The position numbers were made by a program, and so were the translations under genes. This document shows, in pieces, positions 9,419 through 38,429 of a DNA stretch of 64,000 nucleotides. The DNA is from a virus. The stretch is from the IMG/VR virus record IMGVR_UViG_3300041809_000308, positions 1 to 64,000 of that record; one strand, given 5' to 3'. Position 1 is the stretch's first letter. Each line of letters opens with the position of its first letter. Below the pieces are notes generated by a model that was given only the letters and a program-made list of their open reading frames with translations, ran no database searches and was not told the origin of the DNA.

Positions 9419-10732
9419 ATGAATTTCAATTCTCAATTTCTCACCGCCGCAAAGCTGCCACAGCACCACTCTTCTGATTTCAGGGGTTTGGATATAGTAG
9501 TAGAGTGGCCGAAAGGTAGTGTACGAGTTGGTGAAGACAAGAATGGGAAGAAGTGGCATCGCAAGATGGAAGCTGACTATGGCTACATCCCTAATACGGC
9601 TGGTGCCGGGGATAAGGAAGGCTTGGATGTTTACATCGGCCCGGACAAAGAATCTGACAGAGCGTACGTTGTTGAACAGCTAAAGGACAATGGCAAGTTT
9701 GATGAATACAAAGTGCTGCTGGGCTTCCCCGACCTTGATACAGCGTATGAGACCTATCTTAAGCACTATCCTAATGGCTGGGATGACAATGTTGGAGAGG
9801 TATACGAAGTCCCCTTCGAAGATGTAGTCAGCGGGGTTGAAGAGCATCAAGAGAACAACAAGACAGCCTCTTCTGTGGAGGAGAAGCAATACAAAGATTT
9901 CATCCAGCATTATGGCGATTTTATCCGGGAAGTGACTGGTGAAAAGCCACCGAGTTTCACCAAATTTGTAGAGTACCTTCACGACTTTAAGCGTCACATA
10001 ACCTCAACTACCCCCATTTACAGAAGAATCAAGGTTCCGGCAAATTGGAATGTTCAAGATGCTCTCACACTGGGTGTAAGTTGGACTCATGATAGAAGCG
10101 TTGCAGAAAATTGGGTTCCCGATTCGGCTGGATATGATACTCGGTTCACTGTGCCAACTAAGGATTATAAGTACGTACTGTTGGAAGGTCGCGTTAACCC
10201 CAATGATATAGACTGGCTATCTGTTGTGGCTGATGGTTTTTGTACAAGCGAAAGCCTTGTAAAAATCCTCGAAAACTCCCCCATTCATTTAGTTAAGGTG
10301 GACAACGTTCCGATTAACGAAACGAAGACAGCCAGCACCGCTCCGGGAACGTACCCCAGCAGAGCGGTTCCAAAACCTCGACCGCCCAACATTGAACGCT
10401 ACGTTTGGATGTCGTGCCCCAGCGCACGGGAAGACCACATCATGCGCGGATTGGCACAGGATCATTCTCGATTCTGCGACCAGCGTTACTACGACCCACC
10501 AATTACCACCAAAGAGTATGACAACGCCACCCGTGGTTACGCCGAGGTAAAAAATGACGGTAAATCTGTAATTTTGTCTATCTCCCCGATGTGCCGTCCC
10601 GAATTCCAGTATTACCCGCCCTCGATTATCGAGAAATTCAATGAGATGTATCCGGGGTACAAAATATACACCGATGTTGGAAAAACTGCGGGTTTTAGCT
10701 ATCTAAAAGCCCTTCAGTGCATGACTTCTTAG
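9419..10732 (+). CDS. polyvalent protein: InPase (inorganic pyrophosphatase-like) + ART-like module + unknown module, KTA-delimited
   Basis: IVVEWPKGSVR.G.D..G..W...M..DYGYI..T...D.EGLDVYIGP...FDEYKVLLGF matches the polyvalent-protein InPase. KTA at 9860, 10325 and 10682. Confidence 0.82.
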   Translation: MNFNSQFLTAAKLPQHHSSDFRGLDIVVEWPKGSVRVGEDKNGKKWHRKMEADYGYIPNTAGAGDKEGLDVYIGPDKESDRAYVVEQLKDNGKFDEYKVLLGFPDLDTAYETYLKHYPNGWDDNVGEVYEVPFEDVVSGVEEHQENNKTASSVEEKQYKDFIQHYGDFIREVTGEKPPSFTKFVEYLHDFKRHITSTTPIYRRIKVPANWNVQDALTLGVSWTHDRSVAENWVPDSAGYDTRFTVPTKDYKYVLLEGRVNPNDIDWLSVVADGFCTSESLVKILENSPIHLVKVDNVPINETKTASTAPGTYPSRAVPKPRPPNIERYVWMSCPSAREDHIMRGLAQDHSRFCDQRYYDPPITTKEYDNATRGYAEVKNDGKSVILSISPMCRPEFQYYPPSIIEKFNEMYPGYKIYTDVGKTAGFSYLKALQCMTS

Positions 10733-10780
10733 TCCTTCAAGTAGGAGCCGTCTAGCGGTATTGGCTCTAAAGGAGCTAGG

Positions 10781-11113
10781 ATGCCCTTGAAGTCAGCCAC
10801 CCCCTCTAAGTCAGACCTGAGTTTGAAACGGACCTACGCTAAGTACAACCGACTGTACTTTGGCGGGGAACTACCTGACGCCAGTGTGTGGTGGGAGCCA
10901 CCTGATGGAGCATACGCCGATTGTACTAAACTAGATGGAGAATTCCGAATCAGAATGAGTCCAAGTATCTCAGGTTGGACAGAGATATGGCATCTCACTC
11001 TTCTTCATGAGATGGTTCACGTGAAGCTGTGGCCTCTCAAGAGACACACAAAAAAGTTCCAAGACGAGATGCTGCGACTGGCTGAACTCGGAGCCTTCAA
11101 CAAGCTATGGTAG
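10781..11113 (+). CDS. SprT-like zinc metalloprotease
   Basis: YNRLYFGGELP...TLLHEMVH...H.KKF; AAGGAG RBS. Confidence 0.85.
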   Translation: MPLKSATPSKSDLSLKRTYAKYNRLYFGGELPDASVWWEPPDGAYADCTKLDGEFRIRMSPSISGWTEIWHLTLLHEMVHVKLWPLKRHTKKFQDEMLRLAELGAFNKLW

Positions 11114-11147
11114 ACGAGAACTAAGTTCTTGCGTTGCATCAACTATC

Positions 11148-14100
11148 GTGCCCTTTATTAGGGCGATGTGGACGATGCGGGTGCAAAATAACCTTCTAAA
11201 GCAAGCAGTGACGACTGTCCAGTATTTGTGGGCAGAAGTTCCCATGCGTTCGGGCAACGTCATCTGCCAGAGAAGCACGCTCCCTCACACAGAATGGTTC
11301 AGACAGATGGGGTTGCCCTCGTGGGGCAATGACTTCGACCGAACCGCACGTGGCATCATCAAGATAGACAAGGTAGCCAAGACGGCGGTTATTGAAACCT
11401 ACCACCCGGATTTCGCGCCTCGTGAAGTTTGGCAATTCTTCCGCAAGAAACTCCCGGCTGATTTCAAACTCGATGAACAACCGTATCAGATAGACCTTGA
11501 CCAGCGGTTTGCCTCAACAGGAACCGCTCAAACCAAAGCGTTAAAGCTTTTCAAACCCACATTCAATCATCCAGAAGACACTCGATTTATCTATCAAAAT
11601 GGGGTTGTGCATCAAAGTCCAGAAAACCATTATATGATAGCTGAGACCTCTCTTCCCAAAGAACTACTCAGTAAGGCTGAAGGGGGATATGCTAACTGTC
11701 CAGCAGAATTGGAGAATGTGGAGATTTTTTTGAAAACCACAGGGGCTGTTAGAGTAGCCGAAAACAGTGAAACACGAGTTGGACTTCACCTTGTTGTCCC
11801 TCCAACTGCACCCCAACTACGCCGTATGGCAGAGATAGCACGAGGCAAAAAAGTATACTGGACGGTTGTTGATAACGAAGGACAAGGAACATTCGCTGAT
11901 TTTCAACGAGCCCTAGATTCAGTTTTTCATAAGAAATTCGCATCGGCTGAATATCCACCTGAACTGAATGGTCTCGCCGCCGAAGCGAAGAAGTGCTCAA
12001 CCTTCAAAGAATTCGAACACAACTTCTCCATGGACTTAAAACATGGTCGCTACTATCACTTGACCGACAACCCCAACTTCACCATTGACTCCACCAAGGG
12101 GCCACGTGACATGTCCAGCATGGCTGGTGGTCAAATGGAGACTGGGAAGCTAATGATAACCTCCCATTTGGAGAACTGGGACGCCTATTACAACTGGAAG
12201 GACGAGGACACAGAAGAGGTCACACGTCCTTATGTCGCCATCATCGACATGAGTCAGGTGCCTCGCAACTCCTACCATCAAGTGAGCCGTGGATTTGGCA
12301 ATGAGTTTTGGGTTGAAGACCCGAGCAAAGCCAAAGTTATCAAGGTGGTTCCTATCGCGGAGGGTCGGGCTGACGCTGCTCATGACCAAGACATAATGGG
12401 TCAGTACATCAACAGCAAGGAAGACCTCGAAGAGTTCTACAACTGGGCGAAGGGCATCAAAACTGCCGCCGTAGAAGTAGATATGAACCTCATCAACAGC
12501 ATCGTTGATGAGTACATGCCTGTACTGAAACCCAGCCTACCCAAGCCTGAAATCAAGATCAGCAATGGGCAAAGTAATGTGCTTGGTGAATGTGTGTGGC
12601 GGTATGGGTACCACACCGCCACGGGTGAAAGTTTCTGTGGAGACAACACCACTATCACCTTGCAAAGACGCATTTGCGGGGATGAACGCACCTTGCGTCG
12701 TATCATCGCTCACGAACTCGCTCACCATGAGGATTCCCTCGTCAACGAAGTGGCGGATTTCAAAGAGAAAGGGTATCAGAAATTTGTCGCTTATCGTAAG
12801 ATGTTCCGTCCTGACCATCACGGTCCGAAGTGGTTATCCATTGCGGCTCGATTCAATGCGAAGTATGGTAAGAACTTCGTAACTCGAACCTCTGACCAAA
12901 CCATGGTAACTGATGATACCGACCTCAAGCCCTGCTATGTGTTGATTGAGTATTACGACGGTCAACTCATGTGGCAAGTCGCCAACCGTCTCAGTCCAAA
13001 AGCAAAACAATACCTTGGAGAATTGGCAGAGGGAGAATATCTCGGTGCGATTGGTAAGGGTCATTATGAACACAAGTTGTTCATGAGCAGCGACCCGATT
13101 CTTATCAAGAAGGGAGCCCCTCTGGTTAAATATAATGGCTGGTCAACCACCAGAACCGAGGGAGCGAAAGAACGGCTGGAGGAATTGTGGAATAACGGCA
13201 CCGACATTCTGTCGCAATTCAAACCACAAGAAAAGACAGCGGCTCCTATCAGTCAGAATATGAAGAGCCAAATCTACTTCCACGGGACAGGCAATGAAGC
13301 CAGCGCACAAGCAATCATACGAGAAGGCATTCAGCCTCGTGAAATCATCATGCCAGATAAGGCCAAAAGCCGGTCACAACTCGCTCCTGTGCCCGACCGC
13401 GTGTACCTGACTACCAACTTTGGCTATGCTTCTATCTATGCCATGGGTGGACAATACTTCGGCTTGGGAATGCATGACCAGACCAAGACAAACTACACCG
13501 CTGATATGTGGTTGAAGAATCATACCAAGGAAGGTGCCTACGGTTACGTCTTTGAAATCCATGGAAGCCAACTGACAGGAGACGTAGTGCCGGATGAGGA
13601 CAGTATTGGTGAGGCTCTTGAATGGTTGGCTGAAGACATTAAAGGAACACAACGCTTAAACGCTCTGACAGGAATGAACGATGTGACTGGAAAAGCTGAC
13701 TTCGCTCCACAAAAAGAAAAATGGCAAGGCGAATTAGAGAGCCTGAAAAGAAGCATGGAGATTGTCAAGCAGCAACGTATCAATCAACCCGACGTTCCCA
13801 AGCAAGTCCGTACTGAACTCTACCACTTATACATCTGGAGAGTGACTGACAACCAGAAACGCAAGCTTCAAGAAATCGGAACTCAAGCACAAGTTGGCAA
13901 GAAGCTTCAGAAGCTTTTGAGTCAAGAAACATGCCAATGGATGATTGAGAACGGGGCCCATGTGGCTCACCGTGGGCCTATCATCCCCACCAAATGCTGG
14001 AGATTCAGCAAGGAGAAGGCGCTCTACACTTTGAAGCTTGGAGAAATCCTTGAAGAGGTTCCGCTACCTGCACAGAAAACTGCCAAGGACTTTGGCTACA

Positions 14101-16151
14101 CCAAGTACCGCAACCGCGAGAAGGACTTGCAGAATGTGAAATTTGTTTCTCAGGGACTGGAAAGAGAGCATCTTGGTGTGGCTGCAAAATACAACGGCGA
14201 GGACATTGGAGCTATTGAGTGTTCAGTCGTTGCCAAACTCTGCGTCGTATGCAACGTCTGGATAAACGGTGACTGGCGTGGCACCGGGCTTGGACAATTG
14301 CTTTATGACCACGCTATTCAGGCGGCTAAGAAAGCTGGGTTGCTGGTCTTCTCCTCGGATGACCAGTTGACTGATGATGCCGCGAGTGCGTGGCTGCGTT
14401 TAGGCAAGCGTTACCCACTTACTGAAGTGGACAACCTTGAATATGACCCGGACGCTGAGTACAACGGTGAAGTGCCCCAACACCCGGTTCGATACCATAT
14501 CGACTTGAATAGGGTGCCAACCAAGAACCTTGGCACAGTTAAGAAAGCCAGCCCGGACTTCGGTTATTCAAGATTCAACAACCGTGAGGGTGAGTTGGCA
14601 CAAGTGGAGATTACGCTCTCCAATGTGACAGAGTTCAGTTTTCAGGTTGATGCCAACTACAATGGGAAGTTGATTGCGTGGCTCACGTGCAGCGCCGAAC
14701 GTGGGAATGGTAATTGGAACTATCCTGACTACTCAGTGGACGCCGTGAACATCATGGATAACACGTGGAAAGGCACAGGATTGGGTCAGATGCTATATGA
14801 CCGAGCGATTCAGGAAGCTAAGGGGCGCGAGGCTAATTACTTCTACTCAGACACTGGGCTTTCACCACCCGCCCGTTCAGCATGGAATAGATTGAAGCAA
14901 AGATACCCTGTGGAGAGTCTACGTGGGAAAGCAGAAGCGTATGAAAACTACAATCCAGAGGCCAAGAACAAAGGACTGTACAAAGTCCCACGCCTTCGTA
15001 TCGACTTGAACAAAGTGGCTGCAATCTCTCCTGCCGACCGCACGCTGTACCATGGCACCAACGATGAACAGGAGTTCGATACCCTGAAGCCCACGGGTGG
15101 CGACCCAGTTGTGTGGCTGGGCGAGTTGGACACCGCACGCGACATCTATTCACGAACCATTCGTGGTGGTCGTGAACGTGTCTTTGAAGTGAAGTTGAAA
15201 CCTGATGCAAAGATTGCCGACCTGCTTGATGTGAATCAACCAATAACCAAGAAGGTACAAGATTACTTCCTGCGCTGCGTTGGTTCTCGTATTTGGGATC
15301 ATGGTTGGCCTGACATTATGAACTACATGGCTTTCCATCGCCATGACCATGAACTAATACCCCTGCTCAAAGAAGCTGGATTTGATGGTGCCATCGTGAT
15401 GGATAAAGGCAGACCGCGTGGAAGCACCCAATCGCGAGAGCATCACTCTGTCGCGCTGTGGAACATGGATGCTATTGAATCTCAACAGGAGATAAAGACC
15501 GCCTCGGCTTCTACTGTAGGTTCTGCGTTCTGGAATAAGGTGCAAGAAGACGCTCTTGCAGGAATCGTCTATCACGGTACTACATTAGAGGTTGCTGACC
15601 TCATCCTATCCACAGGCTTCCGTGGATTGGAATGGGACGCCATTCTCAAGGACGTGCTGGCAAAATACAACATGACTGAGACCGACATTCCAAAGAAGAT
15701 GTTCAAAGTGCTACAGGAAACGAAACGCAGCTACGAGGCGGAGGCTCATCTGGTTAGTACATCGCCGGGTGGGAACGTGGCTCTTCGCTGGGCGGGAAGT
15801 GGCGGGGAAGTACCGCAGCAAATCGAAGCATACATTCTCGGAAAATACAGTCCTCGCGAAGTTAAAAACTCACGACTTCATGGTGAACCCGCTATCCTGA
15901 AGTGTCGTATCAAGGAATTTCAATCGACGCCGCATTATACACGCATCAAGCAGTCGGTCGATGGGTTAAACCGTCTCATTGCCGATGGTGGGATCACTGG
16001 GGTTTTCTCTCCCCATGAAGCGGCGGAAGACATGTGGGGCACCTACACGAATTTCCTTTGCAAGCCGGAGGAATTAGAGGTAGTAGAGATTATCACGGGG
16101 GCGAGACTCCAAGAGTTAAGCCAGCATCCATTGGGGGTGTCAGTTGAATAA
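11148..16151 (+). CDS. giant polyvalent protein A (~1660 aa, ~9 modules: 4 ART-like, SprT zincin, 2 GNAT, 2 unknown); start probably ATG 11166 or 11175
   Basis: YYHLT, YFHGT, LYHGT, VYHGT (ART); HELAH...HHGPKW (SprT); two WxGTGLGQxLYD (GNAT). Modules separated by KxA motifs. Confidence 0.85.
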   Translation: MPFIRAMWTMRVQNNLLKQAVTTVQYLWAEVPMRSGNVICQRSTLPHTEWFRQMGLPSWGNDFDRTARGIIKIDKVAKTAVIETYHPDFAPREVWQFFRKKLPADFKLDEQPYQIDLDQRFASTGTAQTKALKLFKPTFNHPEDTRFIYQNGVVHQSPENHYMIAETSLPKELLSKAEGGYANCPAELENVEIFLKTTGAVRVAENSETRVGLHLVVPPTAPQLRRMAEIARGKKVYWTVVDNEGQGTFADFQRALDSVFHKKFASAEYPPELNGLAAEAKKCSTFKEFEHNFSMDLKHGRYYHLTDNPNFTIDSTKGPRDMSSMAGGQMETGKLMITSHLENWDAYYNWKDEDTEEVTRPYVAIIDMSQVPRNSYHQVSRGFGNEFWVEDPSKAKVIKVVPIAEGRADAAHDQDIMGQYINSKEDLEEFYNWAKGIKTAAVEVDMNLINSIVDEYMPVLKPSLPKPEIKISNGQSNVLGECVWRYGYHTATGESFCGDNTTITLQRRICGDERTLRRIIAHELAHHEDSLVNEVADFKEKGYQKFVAYRKMFRPDHHGPKWLSIAARFNAKYGKNFVTRTSDQTMVTDDTDLKPCYVLIEYYDGQLMWQVANRLSPKAKQYLGELAEGEYLGAIGKGHYEHKLFMSSDPILIKKGAPLVKYNGWSTTRTEGAKERLEELWNNGTDILSQFKPQEKTAAPISQNMKSQIYFHGTGNEASAQAIIREGIQPREIIMPDKAKSRSQLAPVPDRVYLTTNFGYASIYAMGGQYFGLGMHDQTKTNYTADMWLKNHTKEGAYGYVFEIHGSQLTGDVVPDEDSIGEALEWLAEDIKGTQRLNALTGMNDVTGKADFAPQKEKWQGELESLKRSMEIVKQQRINQPDVPKQVRTELYHLYIWRVTDNQKRKLQEIGTQAQVGKKLQKLLSQETCQWMIENGAHVAHRGPIIPTKCWRFSKEKALYTLKLGEILEEVPLPAQKTAKDFGYTKYRNREKDLQNVKFVSQGLEREHLGVAAKYNGEDIGAIECSVVAKLCVVCNVWINGDWRGTGLGQLLYDHAIQAAKKAGLLVFSSDDQLTDDAASAWLRLGKRYPLTEVDNLEYDPDAEYNGEVPQHPVRYHIDLNRVPTKNLGTVKKASPDFGYSRFNNREGELAQVEITLSNVTEFSFQVDANYNGKLIAWLTCSAERGNGNWNYPDYSVDAVNIMDNTWKGTGLGQMLYDRAIQEAKGREANYFYSDTGLSPPARSAWNRLKQRYPVESLRGKAEAYENYNPEAKNKGLYKVPRLRIDLNKVAAISPADRTLYHGTNDEQEFDTLKPTGGDPVVWLGELDTARDIYSRTIRGGRERVFEVKLKPDAKIADLLDVNQPITKKVQDYFLRCVGSRIWDHGWPDIMNYMAFHRHDHELIPLLKEAGFDGAIVMDKGRPRGSTQSREHHSVALWNMDAIESQQEIKTASASTVGSAFWNKVQEDALAGIVYHGTTLEVADLILSTGFRGLEWDAILKDVLAKYNMTETDIPKKMFKVLQETKRSYEAEAHLVSTSPGGNVALRWAGSGGEVPQQIEAYILGKYSPREVKNSRLHGEPAILKCRIKEFQSTPHYTRIKQSVDGLNRLIADGGITGVFSPHEAAEDMWGTYTNFLCKPEELEVVEIITGARLQELSQHPLGVSVE

Positions 16152-26000: not shown

Positions 26001-29000
26001 CCAATTCAATCCATGTCCGCCGATGGTAAAAAGGCTTGGGGACGTATTGCTAGGAGATATACAGTGACAACAGTGCCAACTGATACGGTTCATGTACCAT
26101 CAGAAGCCAAAGGAACTGCATATTCCACAGATGACTCGGTGGAGGGGCGTTTTCAAATAGATTTGAAAACTGTTTTGCCGAAAACTGCCGCTGTTAGCCC
26201 CGAGGTCAGCCAGTGGTTCCGTAAAATGGTCGAGTTGAAGAAACAGTTTCATGAGGATTCAATGCTTCCCCTACGCGAGGCCGAAGCTCAAGCTCTTCGT
26301 GAACTGGGTGCGACCGCTTCTCCTGAGGCTGTGGCACAAAGAATCCATGAACTTATCGGTGGGAGGGGGGATATTCAGGACAGGATGTACGACAATCCCC
26401 CGGAAATCAACAATGAGTACGAGGTTCAACAGTTCGGTAAACCTCTAAGCGAATTGCAAAGAGACGCGGAATTTGAGGACTGGGCTCGTAAGAAGGGGAT
26501 TGAGATTCCAGAGTTTCCAAAGACGGCAGCGAAGAAGAACAAGCCCACCGCTGTTGTTATTATGGGTGACTCGAATCTCATTGAAGACAATAAAAGGGCA
26601 GAAAGTTTTTACGAGGAGTTGGGCGCGTTTCTTGAGAAGCTGGGGTTTGAAGTTAGCTTTGATGAGGGAGAACCATACACCGAACCCGAACCAGCCGACC
26701 TCTGGATTGGACACAGTAGAGGCGCAGACAGGCTTCGGTTTGCCCCCAAAGGCACCGCTGTAATAGGCATCAATGTTCCCCAGTCCGATGAGGAGGTTGA
26801 TTATCCGATAATTAACAATCCAGATGACGCCATGTCAAAAAGGAAATTTGACCATGGTAAGTTAGTTCGGAGCAGTTGGACAGATGCACATTACACCCTC
26901 ACGGATGAAATGAAAGAAGAGTTGGTTAAGGTCATTTCAGAAGATGGTCTTATTAAGACGGCCAAGAGTCGGTATGTCGGCCCGTATGCCTTTTACATCG
27001 AGATTCCCTCGGCGGCTCGTGACCACTTTTGGAATGAGCCGCCAGAACACAACATGGAATTTTGGGCGTTCCGCAACACTCCTCGTGTGCTGAAGGGTGA
27101 ACGCATCATCTTCACTATGGATAAGAAGCCTGTGGCTGAGGCTGTGTGTGCCTATGTAGAGAAGCCGGGACAGTCGAAGTGTGAACTTACTGGAAAATAT
27201 GAGAAGCACTGGAAGGTCTACTGGGAGCCTAAAAACTTCAAAAAGTACAAAACTAAGACGGCGGCAGAGCCTGAATCAGTTCCTTGGCAAACAGTCTGGA
27301 AGCACATCGAAAAGAACAATCCGCACGAAGGACCGAGAGACGCCTTTTTAGGAATCCCCATTACTGGTAAGGGTGCCACTTGGGTTAAGGAAACGATTCA
27401 ACCTGATGACCCACGTATTGACCGTAATGAAACGTCTGCGTACAGCCTGTACCCAGCCTCGAAGCGAGATGTGAAGAAGTACATGAAGATGTATCAACAG
27501 GGTTCTCCCTTTCCACGTATTGTGTTGGGAGTACGGAGCAATAACAAGTTTGTAATCTATGATGGAGCCCACAGACTGCAAGCAGCAGTGAACCTTGGTG
27601 TGCCTATTGATGCTTATGTGGGATACCCAGAAGAAAATGCCCTTACTCAACGCCAAAGTAGCCTCAGAAATCCCTTGTTGGCAAAGAAGCTACCATCCCT
27701 CAATGAACTGAAGAGGAAATTTGTATGGAAGCCGAACCCCTCTTACTTTGAGTTAGAAGGTGGGTTTGATTCTTGGTATCTGTTGCCTGATGGCTCCTAC
27801 TTAAGTAGCAGGTTCAAGGATAGTGGTCATCACATGCACCATGGGCAGCTTGCCGCGTACGCTCTTGGAATGAACCCCGAGGACTTTGATGACGCTTATA
27901 TCAAAGAAGACACATGGGACAATATCCGAGAGTTCTCTCGTAAGTTCAAAGCCATACGCATCAATGTGACTGGCGACAGTGTGAATGTGGACGCTCTCTT
28001 TCCACCAACCCCCGCACAGATGCGTGAACTTGCCAGACTGAGCGCGGGGAACAAGAAGGTCTACTGGGCTGACGATAGCCCAATTACAAGCGAATGGCTG
28101 GGTAAGGGAACCTTCCCTGACTTCCAGCGTTGGCTGGACTCACGCTTCGCTCCATCCACCAAGACGGCGGCTGAATATGAGAATGCCTACCAGCAAGACA
28201 GAAATGAATATGCTGGTGAGTGGAAAGAAACCGAGACCGAGGATGAATCCCGTACTCGTTACCGTCGCAAGAACGAGTGGGAACAGTCGTTACTCGCCGC
28301 ACTGTCACTCGGAAAAATGAATCCCGATGATGCCGATACACGCAAGTATCTGGCAACGTCTATTGGTAGCCGTTTTGCTGATGCATTCAAGCCATTGCCA
28401 CAAGTGTTGTACCACGTCACAACAGCTAAGAGCAAAGTACAGAACGGCGGATTGCAGTCTCGTTTCGAACTCAGTATGCAAAACGGTCTTGGTCTAGGCG
28501 GCGGGGACAACAAGTCCATCAGCTTCACCGAGGACTTGGACATCGCCAAGGGCATTTATAGTGCCATGATTGAAGCTAAGCGCGTTGCTGCCGGTGAGTT
28601 CACAGTTCAGCAAATGATGGACATTGCAGCCAAGGGAGAGGGTGCCGACCGTCCATGGATTACTGAATTCGTTCGTTGGGCTGGTGCCTATCGTTCACAC
28701 AATGAGTGGAGCCCCGGCCAGCCGCTGCCTGAAGACATGCAAGCCATTCTGGAAGGCAAGAAAGTCCAGAGTGTGGGATTTGTTGCTCCCATGTCTGAGA
28801 GCAAGCTTAAGGAGACTGGCTACGAACCCATAGGTGAGGGCTGGCAAGGACGCGACGAGCACTTCTGGAGTGCCTTCAAACGGCCTATGACTCCCAAGGA
28901 GAAGCAGGACGTTGAGTTTGACCAGTACAAGGTCTTCTGCTATGCCCGTGAGAACGCTGGCGGGGCTCTGAATCCCCTGTTCTTCTCTACGGACGTTGAG

Positions 29001-32000
29001 GGGTTGGCGAAGGTTCCTGAGGCAGAGATTGCCATCCTGAAGTTCAAGCCCGTTCTCGGTGCCATGGGGACGCAGGAATCGGCTCTTGGTGAGTGGCGGA
29101 CTTACTCTGGTCAAGCTGTACAGTTGGTTGGTGATGTAAGCAAGACAGCCAGTGTCTACGATACCTACACCCCGGACGATGAGGATGACCACCCATTGTT
29201 TGATAAATTAATCTCATTGAAACCAGCGTTTGTTGAATGCGTTCAAAAACTGTACAATAAATGGAGGCCAACCAAAACCAAATCCGGTGGTCTTTGTGAC
29301 GACGTTGCAGCAGCATTCTCAGACATCATCCTGACTCATATAGCCATAGATGACATGGACACTGAACTTGGTGGATACACTGAACATGCATGGATTGTGG
29401 CTTACACTAAATCTGAATCATACGTAGTCGATGTTCCTTTCTGGAAATACGAATTCGGGAGTGGTGGGAACTGGAAGAAACTTCCCAATGTCCAATTCAC
29501 AGAAAACGACATCATAATTTTCCCCACAGATGAACTAATGGTTAAAACGGCGGCTGCCAACCCCCTTGTGATGTACCACGGCACCAGTGAGCCCTTCACA
29601 AAAGTGGATATGAGCAAAGGAGCACAGGGAGTGTTCTGGTTGACCTCCGACCCCAATTCTCTAAAGAGTGGAGAGCGCGGTGCATCAAGCACTAAGGTTA
29701 TCTTGCGTTGTTTGGTTATTATCAAGAACCCGGCTGGATGGGAAGAGTATGAAAAGAAAAGTATTGGTGAGTTGAAGCGCGATGGGTTCGATGGTGTCAT
29801 TCTGCCTGACCCTGATGGCAGTTTCGACGCCATTGTGTTCAAACCCAGTCAAGTGAAAATCGTGGGGGAGGAAAAGATTGCCTCCGGTTCAGTAGAAGTC
29901 TCACCCGAGGGTAGATTCAAGAACTTCACCCTCTCACTCGAAGAAAGAACTTTGGCAAACAAGCCCACAGTCACGATAAGTGCGTACACCATGGGGGAAG
30001 AAATCTATGTCGGTCATGTTACCTTTGTAAAACGTGATGACGGGAAGCTAGAGCCTGTGAATCTTGAAGTCTCATACAACTACCGTAGACAAGGGCTTGC
30101 TACAGCAATGTACATGTTCGCAGAGCAAAAAACCGGATGCAAAATTGCACCCGCTGTGGAACAAACAAGTAATGGAAGGCGACTGTGGAACCAACTAAAC
30201 CGTCCCTTCGGTAATAAAAAAGAAGCCAAACAGTTGAAAGACATTGAAGGCAACAGAGATTTGTTTTCAACTATTGTTAAGGAGCAAGGGCTCACTGTAG
30301 AAACAGACCCCAAAGGCATTCGGTCGGCAGTTCTGAGACAACCCCTAATCCTTCATCACGCTACTCCGAAAAAGAACCTGCTTGAAATCGAAAAGAATGG
30401 TCTCCAGCCTCGTTCGGATGATGGGTGTTACCCCATCGGGAGGAAACTGTTTCTTGGTCTCGAAGACACCTGTTCTCAATATTTAGGCGGTCTGGAAAAC
30501 ATTAAAAATAGTGTTGTGTTGGAGGTTACACTTCCGACAGGTACACGTATCTACGACAACGACTTTGAAGCGGATGAAGTGTTTATCCAAACTGCAATTC
30601 CTCCGACTGGGATTAGAAAAACCGCCGCCCGTGGTGAAGCATGGCGTGGTCACGCTGACCAAAGCGAGTCGGAGGAATCCAAGCGTGCATGGTATTTAGA
30701 AATGCTTAGAAAACTGATTAGTGAGGCGAAGAATACACTTCGTGATGAGGCTGACCCACTAGAGCAAAAGCGTCTGACTGAAGCCATTAAGACCTATGAG
30801 ACCTTAAGAGAGAACATGGGCACACAAGGTATTCTATCCCCATTCAAGAGCGCCCTCCTGAAGTCCGCTGCCGACCTGTGGCACGGTGGACGTATCTATG
30901 GGCCAATTCAGATTCAAGCACCAACAAAAGGTCGGTATGAAGCTGGGCCGGGGTTATATTTGACGACCAGCTACTCGCGTGCATCTTCGTATGCGAAAGG
31001 TGGAGGTTCAACCTTCCTTGTTTCATTGAAGGATGGTCTGAACTTTGCTAATAAGGTTGAGATTCCTTTGAACGAGGGTGCGGAATTTGCCACTCGTTAT
31101 TTAGGTAAGGGTAAACTAATCGCCAAGGACTTGAAAGCCAACTGCGAACGCATGAAGAAGAACACGTTCACGGCGGACATCCTCATCAACCTCACTGTCA
31201 ACTACGAAGCCGGTTCCGGGAAGAGAGGCATGTACTTGTTGAACTTCTTGGTCGAACATGGCGTTGACGCTGCAATTGAGGAGCAGGGCAACGGCGAACA
31301 GTGGGTTGTTGTTTTCAATCCCAAGGTGGTCACAAAGGTCAGGAAGATTCCCGCCGCTGAGGTCACCCCTGAGATGTGGCATCTTCCGAAAATTGCAGCT
31401 ATGACACCAGAACAGATGTTACAATCAGCAAAATTTTGGGAGAGCGCCTGTTTCTCTCACGGTGAACCGGGGAGAGTTCCCGCTGAGTCACTCAATTGGA
31501 GAGAAGAAACATTTGACCTTAACAAATTAAAGGGGTGGGCTCAAGGAGACTGGGATTGGCTGTATGAAGATGAAAGGGAGAGAGACATCGAGAATTTCGA
31601 GACTCTTGAAGGTGCAGAAAAATTTGTCAAAGAGATGTGCGAAGCTATCAAGGATGGGACAATCGAAGAGATAGTTGTAGCTCAGGGAACGGATAAGAAT
31701 TTCTATGTATGGGACGGCAATCACCGTGTGGGAATTGCCCACGTTATTGGTGTAAACACTCTACCAGCATTAGTGGGATACCAGAAGCCAAAGAAGACAG
31801 CCTCAAAGAAGAAACTTTCCATCCTGTATCTGGATGATTGTCGCGTGCCCGACGACCCTGAGGTCATTCATGTTCACAACTATCAGGAGTTCGTGCAATA
31901 TCTGAGCACGCACGAAATGCCTGACCTCATTTCGTTCGACCACGATATTGACCTTGAACACGCACCGACCGAAGAACAAGCACAAAAGCGTGATGACGAA

Positions 32001-34607
32001 TGGCGTGTGCCTTACGAGGACTACACCAAGCCGACCGGCGTAGACTGTGCAAAGTGGCTCGTGTCGCATAACATGCCAGTTAAAGCGTGGCAAGTTCATT
32101 CAGCCAACCCAGTGGGCGGCGACAACATTTGGGAAGTGATGAAAGCCAAATGGCCGCGAGGAGAAGTCTTCTATAACATTCCCCATCACAACGATGAGAA
32201 GAATGTCTACGGCGACAAAGTGCGAAATGGGATGCGTGTAGCTGCTGTCAGGCGAGTATTCCATGGCACCCCAGTCGCCTTCGAAAATTATGATTCCCAT
32301 TGTGGGGTGTACTACTTTACAGACGACACTGAATATGCTGACTGGTTTGCGAACACCAGACATGGGATTCACACTGGGGTAACTCAAATCTATGACCTAG
32401 ACTTGAAGAATCCCTTCGATGCTCGTAAAGTGAAAAATCTCACCTTCCAAGAGTACGCTCAACTTCTTGGCATAGAGGAGAAAGACTTACTGTGGGAAGC
32501 CCGGTGGTATGAGACAGGTAAGAAGCGCCCGTTCTGGTACTGGTTCAACAAAATCAGAATGACCTCCAAAGAAGCCTTTCAAGCACAAGGGTACGATGGT
32601 GTGATTCAAAAAGAGCGCACGGCTGTTTATGGTGCCGAAGCGAAAGCAAATTCTTATGTGGCGTTCTCGCCGGGGCAGTTCAAGAAGACCGCAGCGGAAG
32701 AATTCAACTTGGATGATTATCTCTCCAAGGTGACTTACGAGAACGACATCTACGACGCCCATGGCAACGAAACCTACGGCACCGTCCGCTGCAAAGGACC
32801 GAACGGGCAGACAGTGGGCTACATCGACTACAGTCTTTACACAGACTACGATATACACACGGAGTCCGGTGAACCCGCTGAGGTCATTCATATCAAGATG
32901 ATTGAGACCCACCCGGAGGCTCGTCACCGGGGGATTGCAACCAAGATGCTTCAGAAGTTGAAGGCAGACTGTCCCGGCTATCTGCTGAACTGGGGGGGTC
33001 TCACACCGGCAGGTAGTGCATTTCGGGAAGAGTTTGAAAAGAATGTCACCGCAGCGATGCACTGGTACTACCATATCAGCCCAACCATAAATCGTGCTTC
33101 AATTCTTGAACACGGGCTCCGGGCTCAGATACAAGAGTTCATAGACATCAACCGTCCCGCTGGTGTTTATGTGTTCAAGACAGAGCAGAACGCCATCAAC
33201 TTTGCCCACAATACATGGTGGAATTTCTCAGGAGCCGAACGCGGTCTTGATCTTTGGAAAGTAAAAATCGAATCCACAGTGTTGAAGGTCGATGACCACC
33301 CGGAGGTTAAGGACGCTTACTACACTTCAGATAGTGTGCCGGTAGCCAATTTGAAATTGGAGTCATATTTGACTGAAGACGGTGGAGAGTTTGATCCTTC
33401 GGAAGAAGATGGACACTTGGAAGAAGATGACATCGAATATCTCGATGGGGATAAAACAGCGTCAAAGATAGCTGCACCGCGTGGCATTTACTATCACGGT
33501 TCTTCCATCAAGAATCTGCGGAGCATTCTCACGCAGGGGCTCGTACCCATGGAGAAGGGAAAGAACTGGCAAGACGATCCCGATGCTGGTTTCTACAACC
33601 CAAGCCGGGAGAGCTACGGCGGGACATACGTCACCAAGAACCTCATGACTGCCCTTGGTGCTCCACGTGACAAGGGAGAAGAGGGCCGTGAGGTTATTGT
33701 GTGCATGGAACTCCAGCCCAACACCTTCTACTTGGACGAGGACGACATCAACTTCTACATCTCGAAACCACTCTCGGGAAATCTAAACGACAGTAGCTAC
33801 TACATCGGTCTCTACTACCTTGCCAACACGCTTCCTGATGCGGATCAAACTTTCAAGGAGAGCATCGCAGAGATGCGAGATGGCTTCGTGAAGAGAACCA
33901 TCAAGTCCATCGAATTCAAGATGAACAACTACAGCGAGGAGGGCAAACCTCTCCACGAAGGACTGAAAGCACAACTCGCCAAGCTTTTACATGGTGAAGT
34001 GTGGGACGCCTCTCTCAATCGCATGGCAGCACACGCTGCATCGAAGGCATCAAATTATGACAAGGCACACTGGGAGAATACAGTTCACCCACCGAAGAAG
34101 GATGCACAGGGTGAATGGATTGAAGAAGAGAGAGCTACGTTCCCATCGGTCGCCGAAGCTGAGGCTCAGTTCAAAACAGCATCAGAGAAAGTCACCCGCA
34201 CCTTGCGTACTCTCGCAACTCGCGGAAACACTACCAATGCTCGTATCCCAACCCCTATCGGATACAGTGGCTCGAATCATATCACGGCTGTAGCAGAAGT
34301 TCGAGATGGCACGAAGTACCGCGAAACTGAGGCTGGTGGGTTTGCTAAGCCATCCCATATCATCGTTCATTATGGCACGCTGCCGCAGAACTTCCTTGAC
34401 CAATACAAGGAACGAGTGGGTGACAGGTTCGTGGTGACTAAGCCGGGGGAGGAGCCGCCCCCAATGCCGGAGGAGCCTGACAAGGCACCAGAGATGCCTG
34501 ACCCCAACAACATGGAATTCGCTGGTGGCGTTCCTGAGGGCTGGAAGCTATCTACCAAAAAGGAAACCCCGCCACTGGCGGGGTCCAGTGAAGCACTGTT
34601 ACCTTAA
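23046..34607 (+). CDS. giant polyvalent protein C (3853 aa, ~26 modules: ~10 ART-like incl. ART-PolyVal, 3 GNAT, 2 ParB/Srx, 2 papain-like, alpha/beta hydrolase, PUA/EVE-like, cyclic-phosphate receiver)
   Basis: FLRWFGKSKVV..NGQPLVVYHGT...GFYFT...GFDGII...NPSQIKSA.GNVGKF (ART-PolyVal); DGAHRL and DGNHRV (ParB); GHSRG; LYLDD.R...ISFDHD...HSANPVG; RRQGLAT, RHRGIAT, GTGLGQ (GNAT). 15 KTA tripeptides. Confidence 0.87.
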   Translation: MMEHPDYYMEEGCGIYALAVASKYPNAEIYIISRNHGEEWSRSIPYEITHVFCRVPGEGDFDVRGKRTPDQMAADFDTANDYSIKGPWSPQEFYAKFMGNSDNKPLFGTKKDIKEVMTKIAAAPSWIPTFKQLLNEYGGDITKDDKASYDYYVPILSKLKFPLTIYRQIYVNSLDDIKLRGKGKKPGLGRFWADKESLACSHNADEDSGDIEVLLRAVVQPTDIDWLDTFYARIVYGEDEAEISIAPGTPLNVTGMRVNKSKWQVPPPGVKTAASTPVPPDKLSVEIVRVGDVCNVNDYNGYACISKKASGVKVRAYHGTTKNFDVFDTPAMFHVRRKYCEDLIAGQPDGHVVEAILTFKNPADLDTLHMSPSDPKFKEMAKSLEEQGYDGAQYKKEAWIAFYPEQIEIVRPKVAAEVAVQEPEISTPEEDDYAIERQTYGLPKDWKPAKPPEVKRDEPATETQVPKSAPPPVEHKQKVPRQRKQKMPTYTPPTENKAFLRWFGKSKVVGSNGQPLVVYHGTTHDFDVFNTEYGNPENHYGVGFYFTSSRDDTKNYAGVGPDLTSRIDHEAENLVNEWRRWRHGEIDYGVEPPDWVIGGWAEMSDDEKREAFQDMDWSAQLAIAKAEVKKKLVGEHGGAVMPCYLRIVKPVIVAPHGGTYFTLGYTRDGDYKGKLFDAVVRTLTYQFWGDTFGEDAHDGLNAYDFEQKLRKSEAMMDEDIMNEGGPGPVITEIYKNMGFDGIIMENPAQEFRNMGIESGTKHYIVWNPSQIKSALGNVGKFNKKNPSIVASGEEDFHEYIGNCTDDAVVESVFGDATLFAQALEKATPIDDTTMQSDEYGVLIKYDPETDIHSFYKTAAKRIKTVEEIEHLTEDEKELCKKTRPASDKTAMPNYDYSHYTDRETAIKTLNFEYQKYGANVVFSAENPADDRYQPGYLEANIVDDYIVVSDVFIGTSWTGTGLGQMLYDYAISESKKMGLSYFVSYPIQSMSADGKKAWGRIARRYTVTTVPTDTVHVPSEAKGTAYSTDDSVEGRFQIDLKTVLPKTAAVSPEVSQWFRKMVELKKQFHEDSMLPLREAEAQALRELGATASPEAVAQRIHELIGGRGDIQDRMYDNPPEINNEYEVQQFGKPLSELQRDAEFEDWARKKGIEIPEFPKTAAKKNKPTAVVIMGDSNLIEDNKRAESFYEELGAFLEKLGFEVSFDEGEPYTEPEPADLWIGHSRGADRLRFAPKGTAVIGINVPQSDEEVDYPIINNPDDAMSKRKFDHGKLVRSSWTDAHYTLTDEMKEELVKVISEDGLIKTAKSRYVGPYAFYIEIPSAARDHFWNEPPEHNMEFWAFRNTPRVLKGERIIFTMDKKPVAEAVCAYVEKPGQSKCELTGKYEKHWKVYWEPKNFKKYKTKTAAEPESVPWQTVWKHIEKNNPHEGPRDAFLGIPITGKGATWVKETIQPDDPRIDRNETSAYSLYPASKRDVKKYMKMYQQGSPFPRIVLGVRSNNKFVIYDGAHRLQAAVNLGVPIDAYVGYPEENALTQRQSSLRNPLLAKKLPSLNELKRKFVWKPNPSYFELEGGFDSWYLLPDGSYLSSRFKDSGHHMHHGQLAAYALGMNPEDFDDAYIKEDTWDNIREFSRKFKAIRINVTGDSVNVDALFPPTPAQMRELARLSAGNKKVYWADDSPITSEWLGKGTFPDFQRWLDSRFAPSTKTAAEYENAYQQDRNEYAGEWKETETEDESRTRYRRKNEWEQSLLAALSLGKMNPDDADTRKYLATSIGSRFADAFKPLPQVLYHVTTAKSKVQNGGLQSRFELSMQNGLGLGGGDNKSISFTEDLDIAKGIYSAMIEAKRVAAGEFTVQQMMDIAAKGEGADRPWITEFVRWAGAYRSHNEWSPGQPLPEDMQAILEGKKVQSVGFVAPMSESKLKETGYEPIGEGWQGRDEHFWSAFKRPMTPKEKQDVEFDQYKVFCYARENAGGALNPLFFSTDVEGLAKVPEAEIAILKFKPVLGAMGTQESALGEWRTYSGQAVQLVGDVSKTASVYDTYTPDDEDDHPLFDKLISLKPAFVECVQKLYNKWRPTKTKSGGLCDDVAAAFSDIILTHIAIDDMDTELGGYTEHAWIVAYTKSESYVVDVPFWKYEFGSGGNWKKLPNVQFTENDIIIFPTDELMVKTAAANPLVMYHGTSEPFTKVDMSKGAQGVFWLTSDPNSLKSGERGASSTKVILRCLVIIKNPAGWEEYEKKSIGELKRDGFDGVILPDPDGSFDAIVFKPSQVKIVGEEKIASGSVEVSPEGRFKNFTLSLEERTLANKPTVTISAYTMGEEIYVGHVTFVKRDDGKLEPVNLEVSYNYRRQGLATAMYMFAEQKTGCKIAPAVEQTSNGRRLWNQLNRPFGNKKEAKQLKDIEGNRDLFSTIVKEQGLTVETDPKGIRSAVLRQPLILHHATPKKNLLEIEKNGLQPRSDDGCYPIGRKLFLGLEDTCSQYLGGLENIKNSVVLEVTLPTGTRIYDNDFEADEVFIQTAIPPTGIRKTAARGEAWRGHADQSESEESKRAWYLEMLRKLISEAKNTLRDEADPLEQKRLTEAIKTYETLRENMGTQGILSPFKSALLKSAADLWHGGRIYGPIQIQAPTKGRYEAGPGLYLTTSYSRASSYAKGGGSTFLVSLKDGLNFANKVEIPLNEGAEFATRYLGKGKLIAKDLKANCERMKKNTFTADILINLTVNYEAGSGKRGMYLLNFLVEHGVDAAIEEQGNGEQWVVVFNPKVVTKVRKIPAAEVTPEMWHLPKIAAMTPEQMLQSAKFWESACFSHGEPGRVPAESLNWREETFDLNKLKGWAQGDWDWLYEDERERDIENFETLEGAEKFVKEMCEAIKDGTIEEIVVAQGTDKNFYVWDGNHRVGIAHVIGVNTLPALVGYQKPKKTASKKKLSILYLDDCRVPDDPEVIHVHNYQEFVQYLSTHEMPDLISFDHDIDLEHAPTEEQAQKRDDEWRVPYEDYTKPTGVDCAKWLVSHNMPVKAWQVHSANPVGGDNIWEVMKAKWPRGEVFYNIPHHNDEKNVYGDKVRNGMRVAAVRRVFHGTPVAFENYDSHCGVYYFTDDTEYADWFANTRHGIHTGVTQIYDLDLKNPFDARKVKNLTFQEYAQLLGIEEKDLLWEARWYETGKKRPFWYWFNKIRMTSKEAFQAQGYDGVIQKERTAVYGAEAKANSYVAFSPGQFKKTAAEEFNLDDYLSKVTYENDIYDAHGNETYGTVRCKGPNGQTVGYIDYSLYTDYDIHTESGEPAEVIHIKMIETHPEARHRGIATKMLQKLKADCPGYLLNWGGLTPAGSAFREEFEKNVTAAMHWYYHISPTINRASILEHGLRAQIQEFIDINRPAGVYVFKTEQNAINFAHNTWWNFSGAERGLDLWKVKIESTVLKVDDHPEVKDAYYTSDSVPVANLKLESYLTEDGGEFDPSEEDGHLEEDDIEYLDGDKTASKIAAPRGIYYHGSSIKNLRSILTQGLVPMEKGKNWQDDPDAGFYNPSRESYGGTYVTKNLMTALGAPRDKGEEGREVIVCMELQPNTFYLDEDDINFYISKPLSGNLNDSSYYIGLYYLANTLPDADQTFKESIAEMRDGFVKRTIKSIEFKMNNYSEEGKPLHEGLKAQLAKLLHGEVWDASLNRMAAHAASKASNYDKAHWENTVHPPKKDAQGEWIEEERATFPSVAEAEAQFKTASEKVTRTLRTLATRGNTTNARIPTPIGYSGSNHITAVAEVRDGTKYRETEAGGFAKPSHIIVHYGTLPQNFLDQYKERVGDRFVVTKPGEEPPPMPEEPDKAPEMPDPNNMEFAGGVPEGWKLSTKKETPPLAGSSEALLP

Positions 34608-38348: not shown

Positions 38349-38356
38349 TCTGGTTC

Positions 38357-38429
38357 TGGAGCGAGGGGGAGGATTCGATACTCCATTCTCTGTGGGGGTA
38401 CCATAGAGTCTTACTTAGATGACCCTCGC
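38357..38429 (-). tRNA. non-canonical tRNA-Gly-like gene (anticodon ACC by position), CCA encoded
   Basis: GCGAGGG/CCCTCGC 7-bp acceptor with Gly identity G1-C72, C2-G71, G3-C70, U73 and CCA. D-loop lacks GG; T-loop is ATCGAAT; anticodon stem CTATG/CACAG around loop GTACCCC. Confidence 0.7.

What the first reader, a model, noticed from the sequence alone, without database searches (positions are those of the whole stretch)
9419..34607. 25 kb of phage polyproteins whose ~50 enzyme modules are each bounded by a K-x-A motif: candidate protease-processed, capsid-delivered effector arsenal
Seen: in the 3853-aa ORF the tripeptide KTA occurs 15 times (K codons at 23856, 25611, 25707, 26181, 26520, 26955, 27255, 28161, 29142, 29544, 30618, 31794, 32685, 33453, plus one near the C-terminus). 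Roughly one would be expected from composition (rough estimate). Variants KIA, KVA, KKA, KEA, KSA and RVA fill most remaining gaps. Almost all sit between recognisable domains, 100-300 aa apart. The same holds for the 1667-aa ORF (11934, 12459, 13233, 14076, 14544, 15012, 15495), the 2300-aa ORF and the InPase ORF (9860, 10325, 10682). The synonymous codons vary, so the signal is at protein level. Established: T4 gp21 and phiKZ gp175 cut head proteins at short motifs ending in Glu; polyvalent proteins of phages and plasmids carry ART, GNAT, ParB, InPase and zincin domains. Inference: these ORFs are viral polyproteins packaged in the prohead, cut after KxA into dozens of small enzymes and ejected into the host. 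I am not aware of this having been described for polyvalent proteins.
Basis: partly seen in the sequence, partly recalled or inferred. Interest (0 to 1): 0.93.

Follow-up and report, generated by a model that had tools for sequence, protein, structure and literature searches.

The report
Cut-site-punctuated phage effector polyproteins
Four giant multi-enzyme proteins of an uncultured jumbo phage are divided into exchangeable modules by the short signal Lys-Thr-Ala-Ala/Ser, which also marks the flexible tails of the phage's own head protease, so they are probably cut into separate enzymes inside the capsid; no cleavage has been measured.

Summary
KTA is the most over-represented tripeptide in the four ORFs (25 seen, 2.6 expected). 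The signal is K-[T>V,I]-A-[A/S], with 26 sites against about 1 expected, encoded by 13 different 9-mers. Loose K-x-A without Ala/Ser after it is at chance, and ORF C is only weakly punctuated.

The sites are module borders:
- Similarity blocks to relatives end at them.
- Pfam domains fill single inter-site segments.
- One module (D 1709-2035, ADP-ribosyltransferase fold) has free-standing homologues that start and stop at its two sites, and its AlphaFold confidence collapses exactly at the second site.

The link to the head protease is comparative only. The protease has an assemblin/T4 gp21 fold. Across about 140 family members, [KR]-x-A-[AS] is 4-5 times enriched in the tails and not in the core. 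In a complete 332-kb relative, the motif ranks the two polyproteins, the protease and the scaffold-like gene first among 261 ORFs. A phage-G-like relative encodes the same kinds of modules as separate genes, each starting MNWYK-x-A, which resembles its protease's start MAFYKTA.

Packaging, cutting and ejection are untested. The scan has noted similar junction codes with other motifs in other genomes. I rate it a new variant of a known kind.

The parts
9419..10732 (+). ORF A, 437 aa. InPase domain (aa 18-135), then two further segments. Sites: KTAS at aa 148 and 303, KTAG at 422. The N-terminus has LTAA at aa 8-11.
11148..16151 (+). ORF B, 1667 aa polyvalent protein. GNAT domain, zincin-like HELAH at aa 522 (weak SprT-like hit), ART-like modules. 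Strict sites: KTAA 438, KTAA 696, KVAA 1289, KTAS 1450.
16144..23046 (+). ORF C, 2300 aa, no Pfam hit, HETTH at aa 330. Weakly punctuated: KVAA at 205 and 1049. Its start overlaps the end of B.
23046..34607 (+). ORF D, 3853 aa polyvalent protein. Several ART-PolyVal domains, GNATs and cREC_REC. 18 strict K-[TVI]-A-[AS] sites against 0.53 expected; median spacing about 145 aa.
28170..29150 (+). Example module, D aa 1709-2035, between KTA|A (1706) and KTA|S (2033). ART-superfamily fold, nearest KptA/Tpt1. Free-standing homologues of 318-343 aa exist.
62334..63209 (-). Prohead protease, 291 aa, assemblin/T4 gp21 fold. H105 and S162 are invariant; there is a four-Cys insertion. Motif sites lie in the disordered tails: KTAN at aa 5, KTAA at 33, KAAS at 257 and 274.
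59328..61754 (-). 808-aa ORF between protease and capsid gene, scaffold-like by position, no family hit. It carries 8 K-x-A-[ASG] sites. Its homologue ranks 4th of 261 ORFs for the motif in relative G004.
56069..57034 (-). Major capsid protein; the likely start is the Met at 57034. LLKTA|GG lies at aa 17-23 of the N-arm. It matches the solved phage G gp27.
41626..45605 (-). 709-aa and 631-aa ORFs of unknown function, enriched in K-x-A-[AS]. Together with the small ORF at 46457-46801 they have 9 sites against 1.8 expected. Candidate further head cargo.
46457..46681 (-). Small ORF whose likely start reads MANKIAQ, with KTAA further in. The start resembles a tag.

Best explanation
The four ORFs are cargo polyproteins of a jumbo phage related to Tunturiibacter phage Tunturi_5 and, more distantly, Bacillus phage G. 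Each is a string of exchangeable modules: ADP-ribosyltransferase-fold domains, GNAT acetyltransferases, a pyrophosphatase, cREC and zincin-like domains, and many unknowns. The modules are joined by K-[T>V,I]-A-[A/S].

I infer four steps:
- The precursors enter the prohead.
- The assemblin-fold head protease cuts between Ala and Ala/Ser.
- The separated enzymes are ejected with the DNA.
- They then act on the host as anti-defence or takeover factors.

Shown here: the motif, its protein-level selection, its position at module borders, the protease fold, and the family-wide presence of the same motif in the protease's own tails. Inferred: cleavage, the bond that is cut, packaging and ejection.
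For: 1. Enrichment and protein-level selection.

2. The sites are module borders.
- 14 of 64 similarity-block ends against relatives' polyproteins lie within 10 aa of a KTA, against 3.0 expected (P about 5e-4).
- Pfam ART-PolyVal covers profile positions 7-130 of 140 inside a 106-aa inter-site segment, and in two inter-site segments the match begins 3-5 residues after the site.
- Free-standing homologues of module D 1709-2035 begin at the first site and end within 0-2 residues of the next.
- AlphaFold pLDDT is 70-97 between the two sites and below 50 from the residue after KTA.
- Close relatives keep KTA[AS] (13 against 1.5; 9 against 1.5) while the module order differs.

3. Link to the head protease.
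- Assemblin fold: VZV protease Z 10.0, T4 gp21 Z 9.6; all 32 best entries are assemblin-fold proteases.
- All four of its own motif sites lie in the low-confidence tails outside the 45-245 core, two of them in stretches with pLDDT below 50.
- In 50 diverse relatives, an island [KR]-[AV]-A-S is conserved in an otherwise unconserved C-terminal linker (Ala in 47 of 50), and the N-terminus reads M-A-F-x-K-x-A.
- Over about 140 family representatives, [KR]-x-A-[AS] is 4.9 times enriched in N-tails, 3.7 times in C-extensions and 0.86 times in the core.

4. Specificity within genomes.
- In this contig, K-x-A-[AS] counts are: polyproteins 33 against 6.3; head module 9 against 2.4; tail genes 2 against 1.5; early genes 8 against 4.4.
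- In the complete relative G004, the top 4 of 261 ORFs are the two polyproteins, the protease and the scaffold-like ORF.

5. Co-occurrence. Three complete phages whose polyproteins carry [KR]-T-A-[AS]-type sites have this protease family. A 91%-complete phage whose polyprotein uses GEKGD instead has no match to it.

6. Unfused counterpart. Megaphage fragment G006 has 16 gene starts reading MNW[YFH]K. They head small GNAT, ART and Tad6 (anti-Thoeris) genes, and its protease starts MAFYKTA.

7. Established knowledge, from memory. Herpesvirus assemblins cut at Ala|Ser. T4 gp21 trims the head-packaged ART Alt and the internal proteins.
Against: - There are no proteomic, N-terminal or biochemical data for this phage or any relative. 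The phage G structure paper was not available.
- The capsid-protein site is KTA-G, not A/S. Phage G's capsid protein lacks the motif, and its deposited chain is nearly full length.
- The portal-like 852-aa ORF is not enriched here.
- The polyprotein genes lie on the opposite strand from the head and tail genes, so late expression is not evident. In Tunturi_5 one polyprotein does lie inside the structural block.
- Two embedded zincin-like modules could be the processing enzyme instead.
- ORF C is poorly punctuated.
- Similarity-block ends are not independent of each other, and the co-occurrence test has only four genomes.
Confidence: 0.6

Rival explanations
1. The sites are cut, but by the zincin-like metallopeptidase modules embedded in the polyproteins. 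This could happen before packaging or after injection, as Iyer et al. 2017 proposed for polyvalent proteins in general.
For: - HExxH motifs at B aa 522 (weak SprT-like Pfam hit) and C aa 330.
- PMC5512222 names MPTase the commonest domain of polyvalent proteins and proposes autoprocessing.
Against: - The same motif class is conserved in the tails of the head-protease family. That family includes phage G, where no ART-PolyVal polyprotein was found.
- The motif also marks the scaffold-like ORF.
- ORFs A and D have no HExxH.
- P1 Ala with P1' Ser/Ala fits assemblin-fold enzymes (own knowledge).
Confidence: 0.12
2. The motif is not a cut site. It is an uncleaved junction signature: a relic of N-terminal tags of formerly separate genes, a docking or capsid-targeting peptide, or a favoured linker. 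The giant proteins then act whole.
For: - Free-standing homologues carry an N-terminal MNWYK-x-A tag, and one 629-aa ORF in G006 keeps such a tag internally. Junctions can therefore arise as fusion scars.
- Some polyvalent proteins, such as N4 virion RNA polymerase, are packaged unprocessed (PMC5512222).
Against: - A scar would decay. Here four residues are kept at 26 sites through varied codons, while the flanks are unconserved.
- The motif persists at borders although the neighbouring modules differ between relatives.
- The conserved island in the protease's own linker is most simply an autoprocessing site.
Confidence: 0.2
3. Chance, amino-acid composition or a DNA-level repeat produces the pattern.
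For: None found. Loose K-x-A is at chance level.
Against: - P 1.5e-16 for KTA and 9e-22 for strict sites in ORF D.
- 13 different 9-mers encode the sites.
- There is no enrichment in tail or early genes.
Confidence: 0.01

Closest known systems
Phage T4 capsid targeting sequence and gp21 processing of internal proteins IPI-III and the ADP-ribosyltransferase Alt (own knowledge; reviewed in PMC9026906 and PMC9958956)
   Same: Host-directed enzymes, including an ART, are loaded into the prohead, trimmed by an assemblin-fold head protease at a short motif, and injected with the DNA. The tagged small genes of relative G006 look like the same logic.
   Different: In T4 each cargo is a separate small protein with one N-terminal cut after L/I-x-E. 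Here up to about 20 modules are strung in one ORF, with an internal cut-site candidate K-[TVI]-A|[AS] at each joint. The protease family also differs in sequence.
Polyvalent proteins of phages and conjugative elements (Iyer, Burroughs, Anand, de Souza, Aravind 2017, PMC5512222)
   Same: Giant ORFs combine ART-PolyVal, InPase, GNAT, zincin and many unknown domains. That paper already predicted delivery with the DNA and proteolytic release of domains.
   Different: That work names peptidase domains as the likely processors but defines no junction motif. Here a four-residue code marks the joints and points to the stand-alone head protease rather than an embedded one.
Head maturation in phiKZ-like giant phages (phiKZ gp175, SPN3US gp245; PMC10052503, PMC7411985)
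   Same: Jumbo phages in which many internal or ejection proteins are cut by the prohead protease at a three-residue motif that the protease also uses on itself.
   Different: The motif there is A/S/G-x-E and the cuts mostly remove N-terminal propeptides. Those cargo proteins are not multi-enzyme polyproteins, and the cuts were shown by mass spectrometry. Here nothing is measured.
Herpesvirus assemblin maturation and release sites (own knowledge)
   Same: The same protease fold (Z 8-10), with Ala at P1 and Ser at P1'. The enzyme cuts itself away from a C-terminal scaffold part.
   Different: The relation is visible only by fold. The substrates there are scaffold proteins, not effector polyproteins.
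Polyproteins of eukaryotic RNA viruses
   Same: One ORF carries many enzymes, with short conserved cut sites between the units.
   Different: The proteases and domains are unrelated. Here processing would occur inside a capsid, for delivery rather than for replication.

Membership tests
Phage polyvalent proteins (Iyer et al. 2017) | Very large ORF of a phage or mobile element that combines several unrelated conflict-type enzymatic domains. | tested here: met
   InPase, GNAT, ART-PolyVal (several), cREC_REC and a weak SprT-like hit in ORFs A, B and D. Phage context is shown by the capsid protein, protease and tail genes.
Phage polyvalent proteins (Iyer et al. 2017) | Signature domains of the class are present (ART-PolyVal PF18760, InPase PF18823). 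| tested here: met
   PF18760 at E 1.8e-43 in D; PF18823 at E 5.7e-37 in A.
Phage polyvalent proteins (Iyer et al. 2017) | Delivered into the host together with the DNA. | not testable with these tools
   This needs virion proteomics or infection assays.
Assemblin-fold prohead serine proteases (herpesvirus assemblin, T4 gp21, HK97-type) | Assemblin fold of the catalytic core. | tested here: met
   AlphaFold core aa 45-245 has pLDDT above 90. VIA-align gives Z 10.0 to 1vzv and 9.6 to 5jbl, and all 32 top entries are such proteases. Foldseek E-values alone were weak.
Assemblin-fold prohead serine proteases (herpesvirus assemblin, T4 gp21, HK97-type) | Conserved catalytic His and Ser. | tested here: inconclusive
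   H105 and S162 are invariant and H146 nearly so in 50 relatives. Their superposition on known catalytic residues was not checked.
Assemblin-fold prohead serine proteases (herpesvirus assemblin, T4 gp21, HK97-type) | Gene lies next to the scaffold and major capsid genes. | tested here: met
   The order protease, 808-aa ORF, 170-aa ORF, capsid gene is the same here, in Tunturi_5 and in G004.
Assemblin-fold prohead serine proteases (herpesvirus assemblin, T4 gp21, HK97-type) | Cuts itself and head proteins at a defined short motif. | not testable with these tools
   Only inferred, from the conserved [KR]-[AV]-A-S island and the tail enrichment.
T4-type capsid-targeting-tag cargo system | Unrelated cargo proteins share a short N-terminal peptide. 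| tested here: inconclusive
   Met in relative G006: 16 MNW[YFH]K gene starts against 0 in the control. In this window only hints exist: ORF A starts MNF...LTAA and the small ORF starts MANKIAQ.
T4-type capsid-targeting-tag cargo system | The tag directs packaging and is removed by the head protease. | not testable with these tools
   No experimental data are available.
Viral polyprotein | Conserved short sites lie exactly between functional units. | tested here: met
Viral polyprotein | The precursor is actually cleaved at those sites. | not testable with these tools
   This needs mass spectrometry or in-vitro cleavage.

The most novel reading that the evidence does not exclude
Phages of the phage-G/Tunturi_5 supergroup may run a plug-in 'tag-and-cut' cargo system. 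The head protease's own peptide code, aromatic-x-K-x-A at N-termini and [KR]-[TVI]-A-[AS] internally, would act as both address and cut mark. Any enzyme carrying it, as a separate tagged gene or as a cassette in a polyprotein, would then be loaded, released and injected. Other phage clades would use other codes matched to their own proteases, such as GEKGD or FNPNH[DE]. If so, the mature injected effector set of uncultured phages could be read from sequence alone.
Probability: 0.35. Interest if true: 0.85.

Novelty: new variant of a known kind. Interest (0 to 1): 0.7.

Why it matters
About 8,250 codons, 31% of this 78.8-kb contig, encode these proteins. If the junction code is a real cut site, it turns four unreadable giant ORFs into a list of roughly 30 defined mature enzymes, with predictable ends, that the phage injects.

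That gives a direct handle for cloning and testing single anti-defence or takeover modules. A relative's tagged set includes a Tad6 Thoeris inhibitor.

It would extend the T4 Alt and internal-protein paradigm to polyprotein scale. It would also supply the missing 'how' for the processing that Iyer et al. proposed for polyvalent proteins.

Finally, it offers a testable specificity, [KR]-x-A|[AS], for a large head-protease family with more than 1,000 representative clusters, whose cut sites I found described in none of the papers I could search. A cultivable relative, Tunturi_5, makes the test practical.

Tried and rejected
- Megablast of ORF D against the phage collection found no match.
- The search for related loci with the single module as query found no relative. 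It worked only with an alignment.
- A Trp upstream of the sites, suggested by the MNWYK tags, is not significant: 15 of 40 against 12.3. There is no extended motif beyond four residues, and Pro is only mildly enriched.
- Foldseek of the two-module model gave no clear PDB match. VIA-align wide then gave the ART superfamily.
- The second and third modules of that model had no alignment depth and stayed at low confidence, so only one module's borders could be checked by structure.
- A search for shorter homologues of D 2025-2535 gave only 3 hits.
- Pfam and sequence search of PDB did not recognise the protease.
- The phage G structure paper (PMC7316594) is not held. The 2025 phage G paper gives no cut sites.
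- The capsid protein as an independent witness is weak. Its site is conserved in close relatives, but these are 86-93% identical anyway, and phage G lacks it.
- I did not use complex prediction, since an enzyme with its substrate peptide is a poor case for it.
- I did not use the sequencing-run tools, which cannot show proteolysis.

Full report
**What is there**

The window is part of a 78.8-kb contig. It is a fragment of a jumbo phage.
- Its capsid protein is 71% identical to that of Tunturiibacter phage Tunturi_5 (309 kb) and its protease 65% identical.
- The capsid protein is 50% identical to that of an uncultured 485-kb phage, and 35% to that of Bacillus phage G.
- Eighty IMG/VR contigs, up to 463 kb, carry a capsid protein 86-100% identical.

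Four adjacent plus-strand ORFs of 437, 1667, 2300 and 3853 aa total 8,257 codons. Pfam identifies:
- InPase in ORF A;
- GNAT and a weak SprT-like hit in B;
- nothing in C;
- ART-PolyVal several times, GNATs and cREC_REC in D.

These are phage polyvalent proteins in the sense of Iyer et al. 2017 (PMC5512222).

**The observation**

All listed KTA positions are right. KTA is by far the most over-represented tripeptide of the four ORFs: 25 seen, 2.6 expected, P 1.5e-16. KTAA occurs 11 times against 0.21 expected and KTAS 7 against 0.14. Thirteen different 9-mers encode the 25 sites, so the constraint is on the protein.

The motif is narrower than 'K-x-A':

| Pattern | Seen | Expected |
|---|---|---|
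| KTA[AS] | 18 | 0.3 |
| K[IV]A[AS] | 8 | 0.7 |
| K-[not T]-A-[not A/S] | 31 | 39 |

Strict sites per ORF are A 2, B 4, C 2 and D 18. D has P 9e-22, while C is only marginal. No preference extends beyond these four residues.

**The sites are module borders**

1. Similarity blocks between these ORFs and the polyproteins of three large relatives end at the sites. 14 of 64 block ends lie within 10 residues of a KTA against 3.0 expected, P about 5e-4. The ends are not fully independent of one another.
2. When D is cut at the sites, Pfam domains fill single segments. One 106-aa segment holds ART-PolyVal profile positions 7-130 of 140. In two segments the ART-PolyVal match starts 3-5 residues after the site, and cREC_REC starts 8 residues after one.
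3. The segment D 1709-2035 has free-standing homologues of 318-343 aa. In the alignment they begin at the first site and end within 0-2 residues of the next KTAS.
4. An AlphaFold model of D 1696-2290 is confident (block means mostly 70-97) from about residue 10 to residue 340. It falls below 50 from residue 341, the residue after K-T-A. This module has an ART-superfamily fold, nearest KptA/Tpt1 at Z 8.7, that Pfam does not see.
5. Close relatives keep the code while the module order differs. A 4182-aa ORF has KTA 13 times against 1.5 expected, and another has 9 against 1.5. The shared blocks end at KTA sites in both partners.

Tunturi_5's three polyproteins use K-[A/S/K]-A-[AS] and x-T-A-[AS] at the same kinds of borders.

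**Which enzyme reads the motif**

The ORF at 62334-63209 matches a head-maturation-protease PHROG. Its AlphaFold core (aa 45-245, pLDDT above 90) aligns to varicella-zoster protease at Z 10.0 and to T4 gp21 at Z 9.6, and the 32 best entries are all assemblin-fold proteases. H105 and S162 are invariant in 50 relatives. All four of its own motif sites (aa 5, 33, 257, 274) lie in the low-confidence tails outside that core.

The family is large, with 1,089 representative clusters.
- In 50 members of 33-67% identity, the C-terminal linker is unconserved except for an island [KR]-[AV]-A-S, with the Ala present in 47 of 50.
- Their N-terminus reads M-A-F-x-K-x-A-x-A.
- Over about 140 representatives, [KR]-x-A-[AS] is enriched 4.9-fold in N-tails (128 against 26) and 3.7-fold in C-terminal extensions (288 against 78). 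It is not enriched in the core (0.86-fold). KAA is the top tripeptide of the extensions.

Head proteases of T4, phiKZ-like phages and herpesviruses cut themselves at their own consensus site, and assemblins cut Ala|Ser (own knowledge; PMC10052503 for SPN3US). I therefore read [KR]-x-A|[AS] as this family's specificity. That is an inference.

**Specificity controls**

In this contig, K-x-A-[AS] counts are:

| Gene class | Seen | Expected |
|---|---|---|
| Polyproteins | 33 | 6.3 |
| Head module | 9 | 2.4 |
| 709-, 631- and 115-aa ORFs | 9 | 1.8 |
| Tail genes | 2 | 1.5 |
| Early genes | 8 | 4.4 |

I rebuilt a complete 332-kb relative (G004) from fetched pieces and ranked its 261 ORFs by enrichment of the relaxed motif. 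The top four were the two polyproteins, the protease homologue and the homologue of the 808-aa scaffold-like ORF.

Polyproteins from other clades that hold the same ART module do not carry the code.
- One 5280-aa ORF uses GEKGD 13 times instead. Its 91%-complete genome has no match to this protease family.
- Three complete genomes whose polyproteins carry [KR]-T-A-[AS]-type sites, most clearly RTA[AS] in one of them, do have the family.

This is only four genomes, so it is supportive rather than decisive.

**The unfused counterpart**

A 122.6-kb fragment of a phage-G-like megaphage (G006) has 16 gene starts reading M-N-W-[Y/F/H]-K, against none in the reversed-pattern control. The ten inside the fetched locus head small genes, several of them in tandem:
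- three GNATs;
- an ART with the YHGT motif;
- the KptA-like ART module;
- a methyltransferase-like protein;
- a full-length Tad6 Thoeris inhibitor (E 4.5e-35).

One 629-aa ORF keeps a second MNWHK tag internally, which looks like a fusion of two tagged genes. The protease of the same phage starts MAFYKTA. That is the same register as the tags: aromatic at position 3, Lys at 5, Ala at 7. It recalls the T4 capsid targeting sequence shared by the internal proteins and Alt. It suggests that the junctions of the polyproteins here descend from, or act as, such tags.

**What remains open**

- No experiment exists for this clade.
- The capsid-protein site (LLKTA-GG) has Gly after it. Phage G lacks it, and the solved phage G chain is nearly full length.
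- The portal-like ORF is not enriched here.
- The polyprotein genes are on the opposite strand from the structural genes, although in Tunturi_5 one lies inside the structural block.
- Two embedded zincin-like modules (HExxH at B 522 and C 330) are an alternative processor, as Iyer et al. proposed.

I give 0.6 to cutting by the head protease with capsid delivery, 0.12 to the zincins, and 0.2 to an uncleaved tag or scar.

**Novelty**

Processing of polyvalent proteins and their likeness to viral polyproteins were proposed in 2017. Head-packaged, protease-trimmed enzymes are textbook for T4 and phiKZ-like phages.

New here are three things:
- a defined four-residue junction code;
- its match to the conserved tail motifs of a large, uncharacterised assemblin-fold protease family;
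- the tagged, unfused counterpart in a relative.

My searches of the held papers found no description of any of these.

This scan's own earlier notes list 43 findings in other genomes that match the search words, and the eight shown describe analogous junction codes with other motifs. The theme therefore recurs within the scan. I did not test those notes.

Noticed in passing
window 61690-62337, 63214-63795, 45602-46408, 36730-37779 (all - strand): Three GIY-YIG and one HNH homing-endonuclease genes sit inside or beside the structural block. One lies directly between the protease and the scaffold-like ORF, and one directly upstream of the protease.
   Followed up: no
window 62334-63209 (-), protease aa 172-211: The assemblin-fold protease carries an insertion with four conserved Cys: C172, C175 and C186 invariant, C211 nearly so. 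It looks like a zinc ribbon. I know of no such insert in T4 gp21 or herpes proteases.
   Followed up: partly
L169 (G006:C1:58735-65661, - strand): The protease homologue of megaphage fragment G006 is the N-terminus of a 2309-aa ORF. It has what looks like an intein inserted right after the catalytic-serine motif SSMGC, followed by a long extension rich in K-x-A-[SQ].
   Followed up: partly
L111 11474-11896 (+): A full-length Tad6 (type I Thoeris inhibitor, PF25188, E 4.5e-35) carries an 18-residue N-terminal extension starting MNWYKQAQ. This may be a head-delivered anti-defence protein.
   Followed up: partly
L115 (5280-aa ORF); L121 and L129: Polyproteins of other clades that hold the same ART module use other junction peptides: GEKGD 13 times in L115, and KFNPNH[DE] followed by G-x-F in L121 and L129. 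The latter resembles the tag that other notes of this scan call HPR-x3-G-x-F.
   Followed up: partly
window 11148-11260 and 16144-16200 (+); 56960-57034 (-): ORFs B and C begin with a similar peptide, NN(Q)LLKQ[AK]V, which resembles the capsid protein's GQLLKTAG just before its motif site. This could be a shared N-terminal signal or coincidence.
   Followed up: no
window 16144-16151 and 23046: B/C and C/D overlap by 8 nt and 1 nt, in different frames. This suggests translational coupling of the three giant ORFs.
   Followed up: no
window 37752-41030 (- strand): Other first-stage notes flag a tRNA-Gly-like gene beside Mom-like GNAT genes and a cluster of structured RNAs at 40338-41030. My Pfam scan gave only a weak DruA-like hit for 39069-40301. 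I did not examine the RNAs.
   Followed up: no
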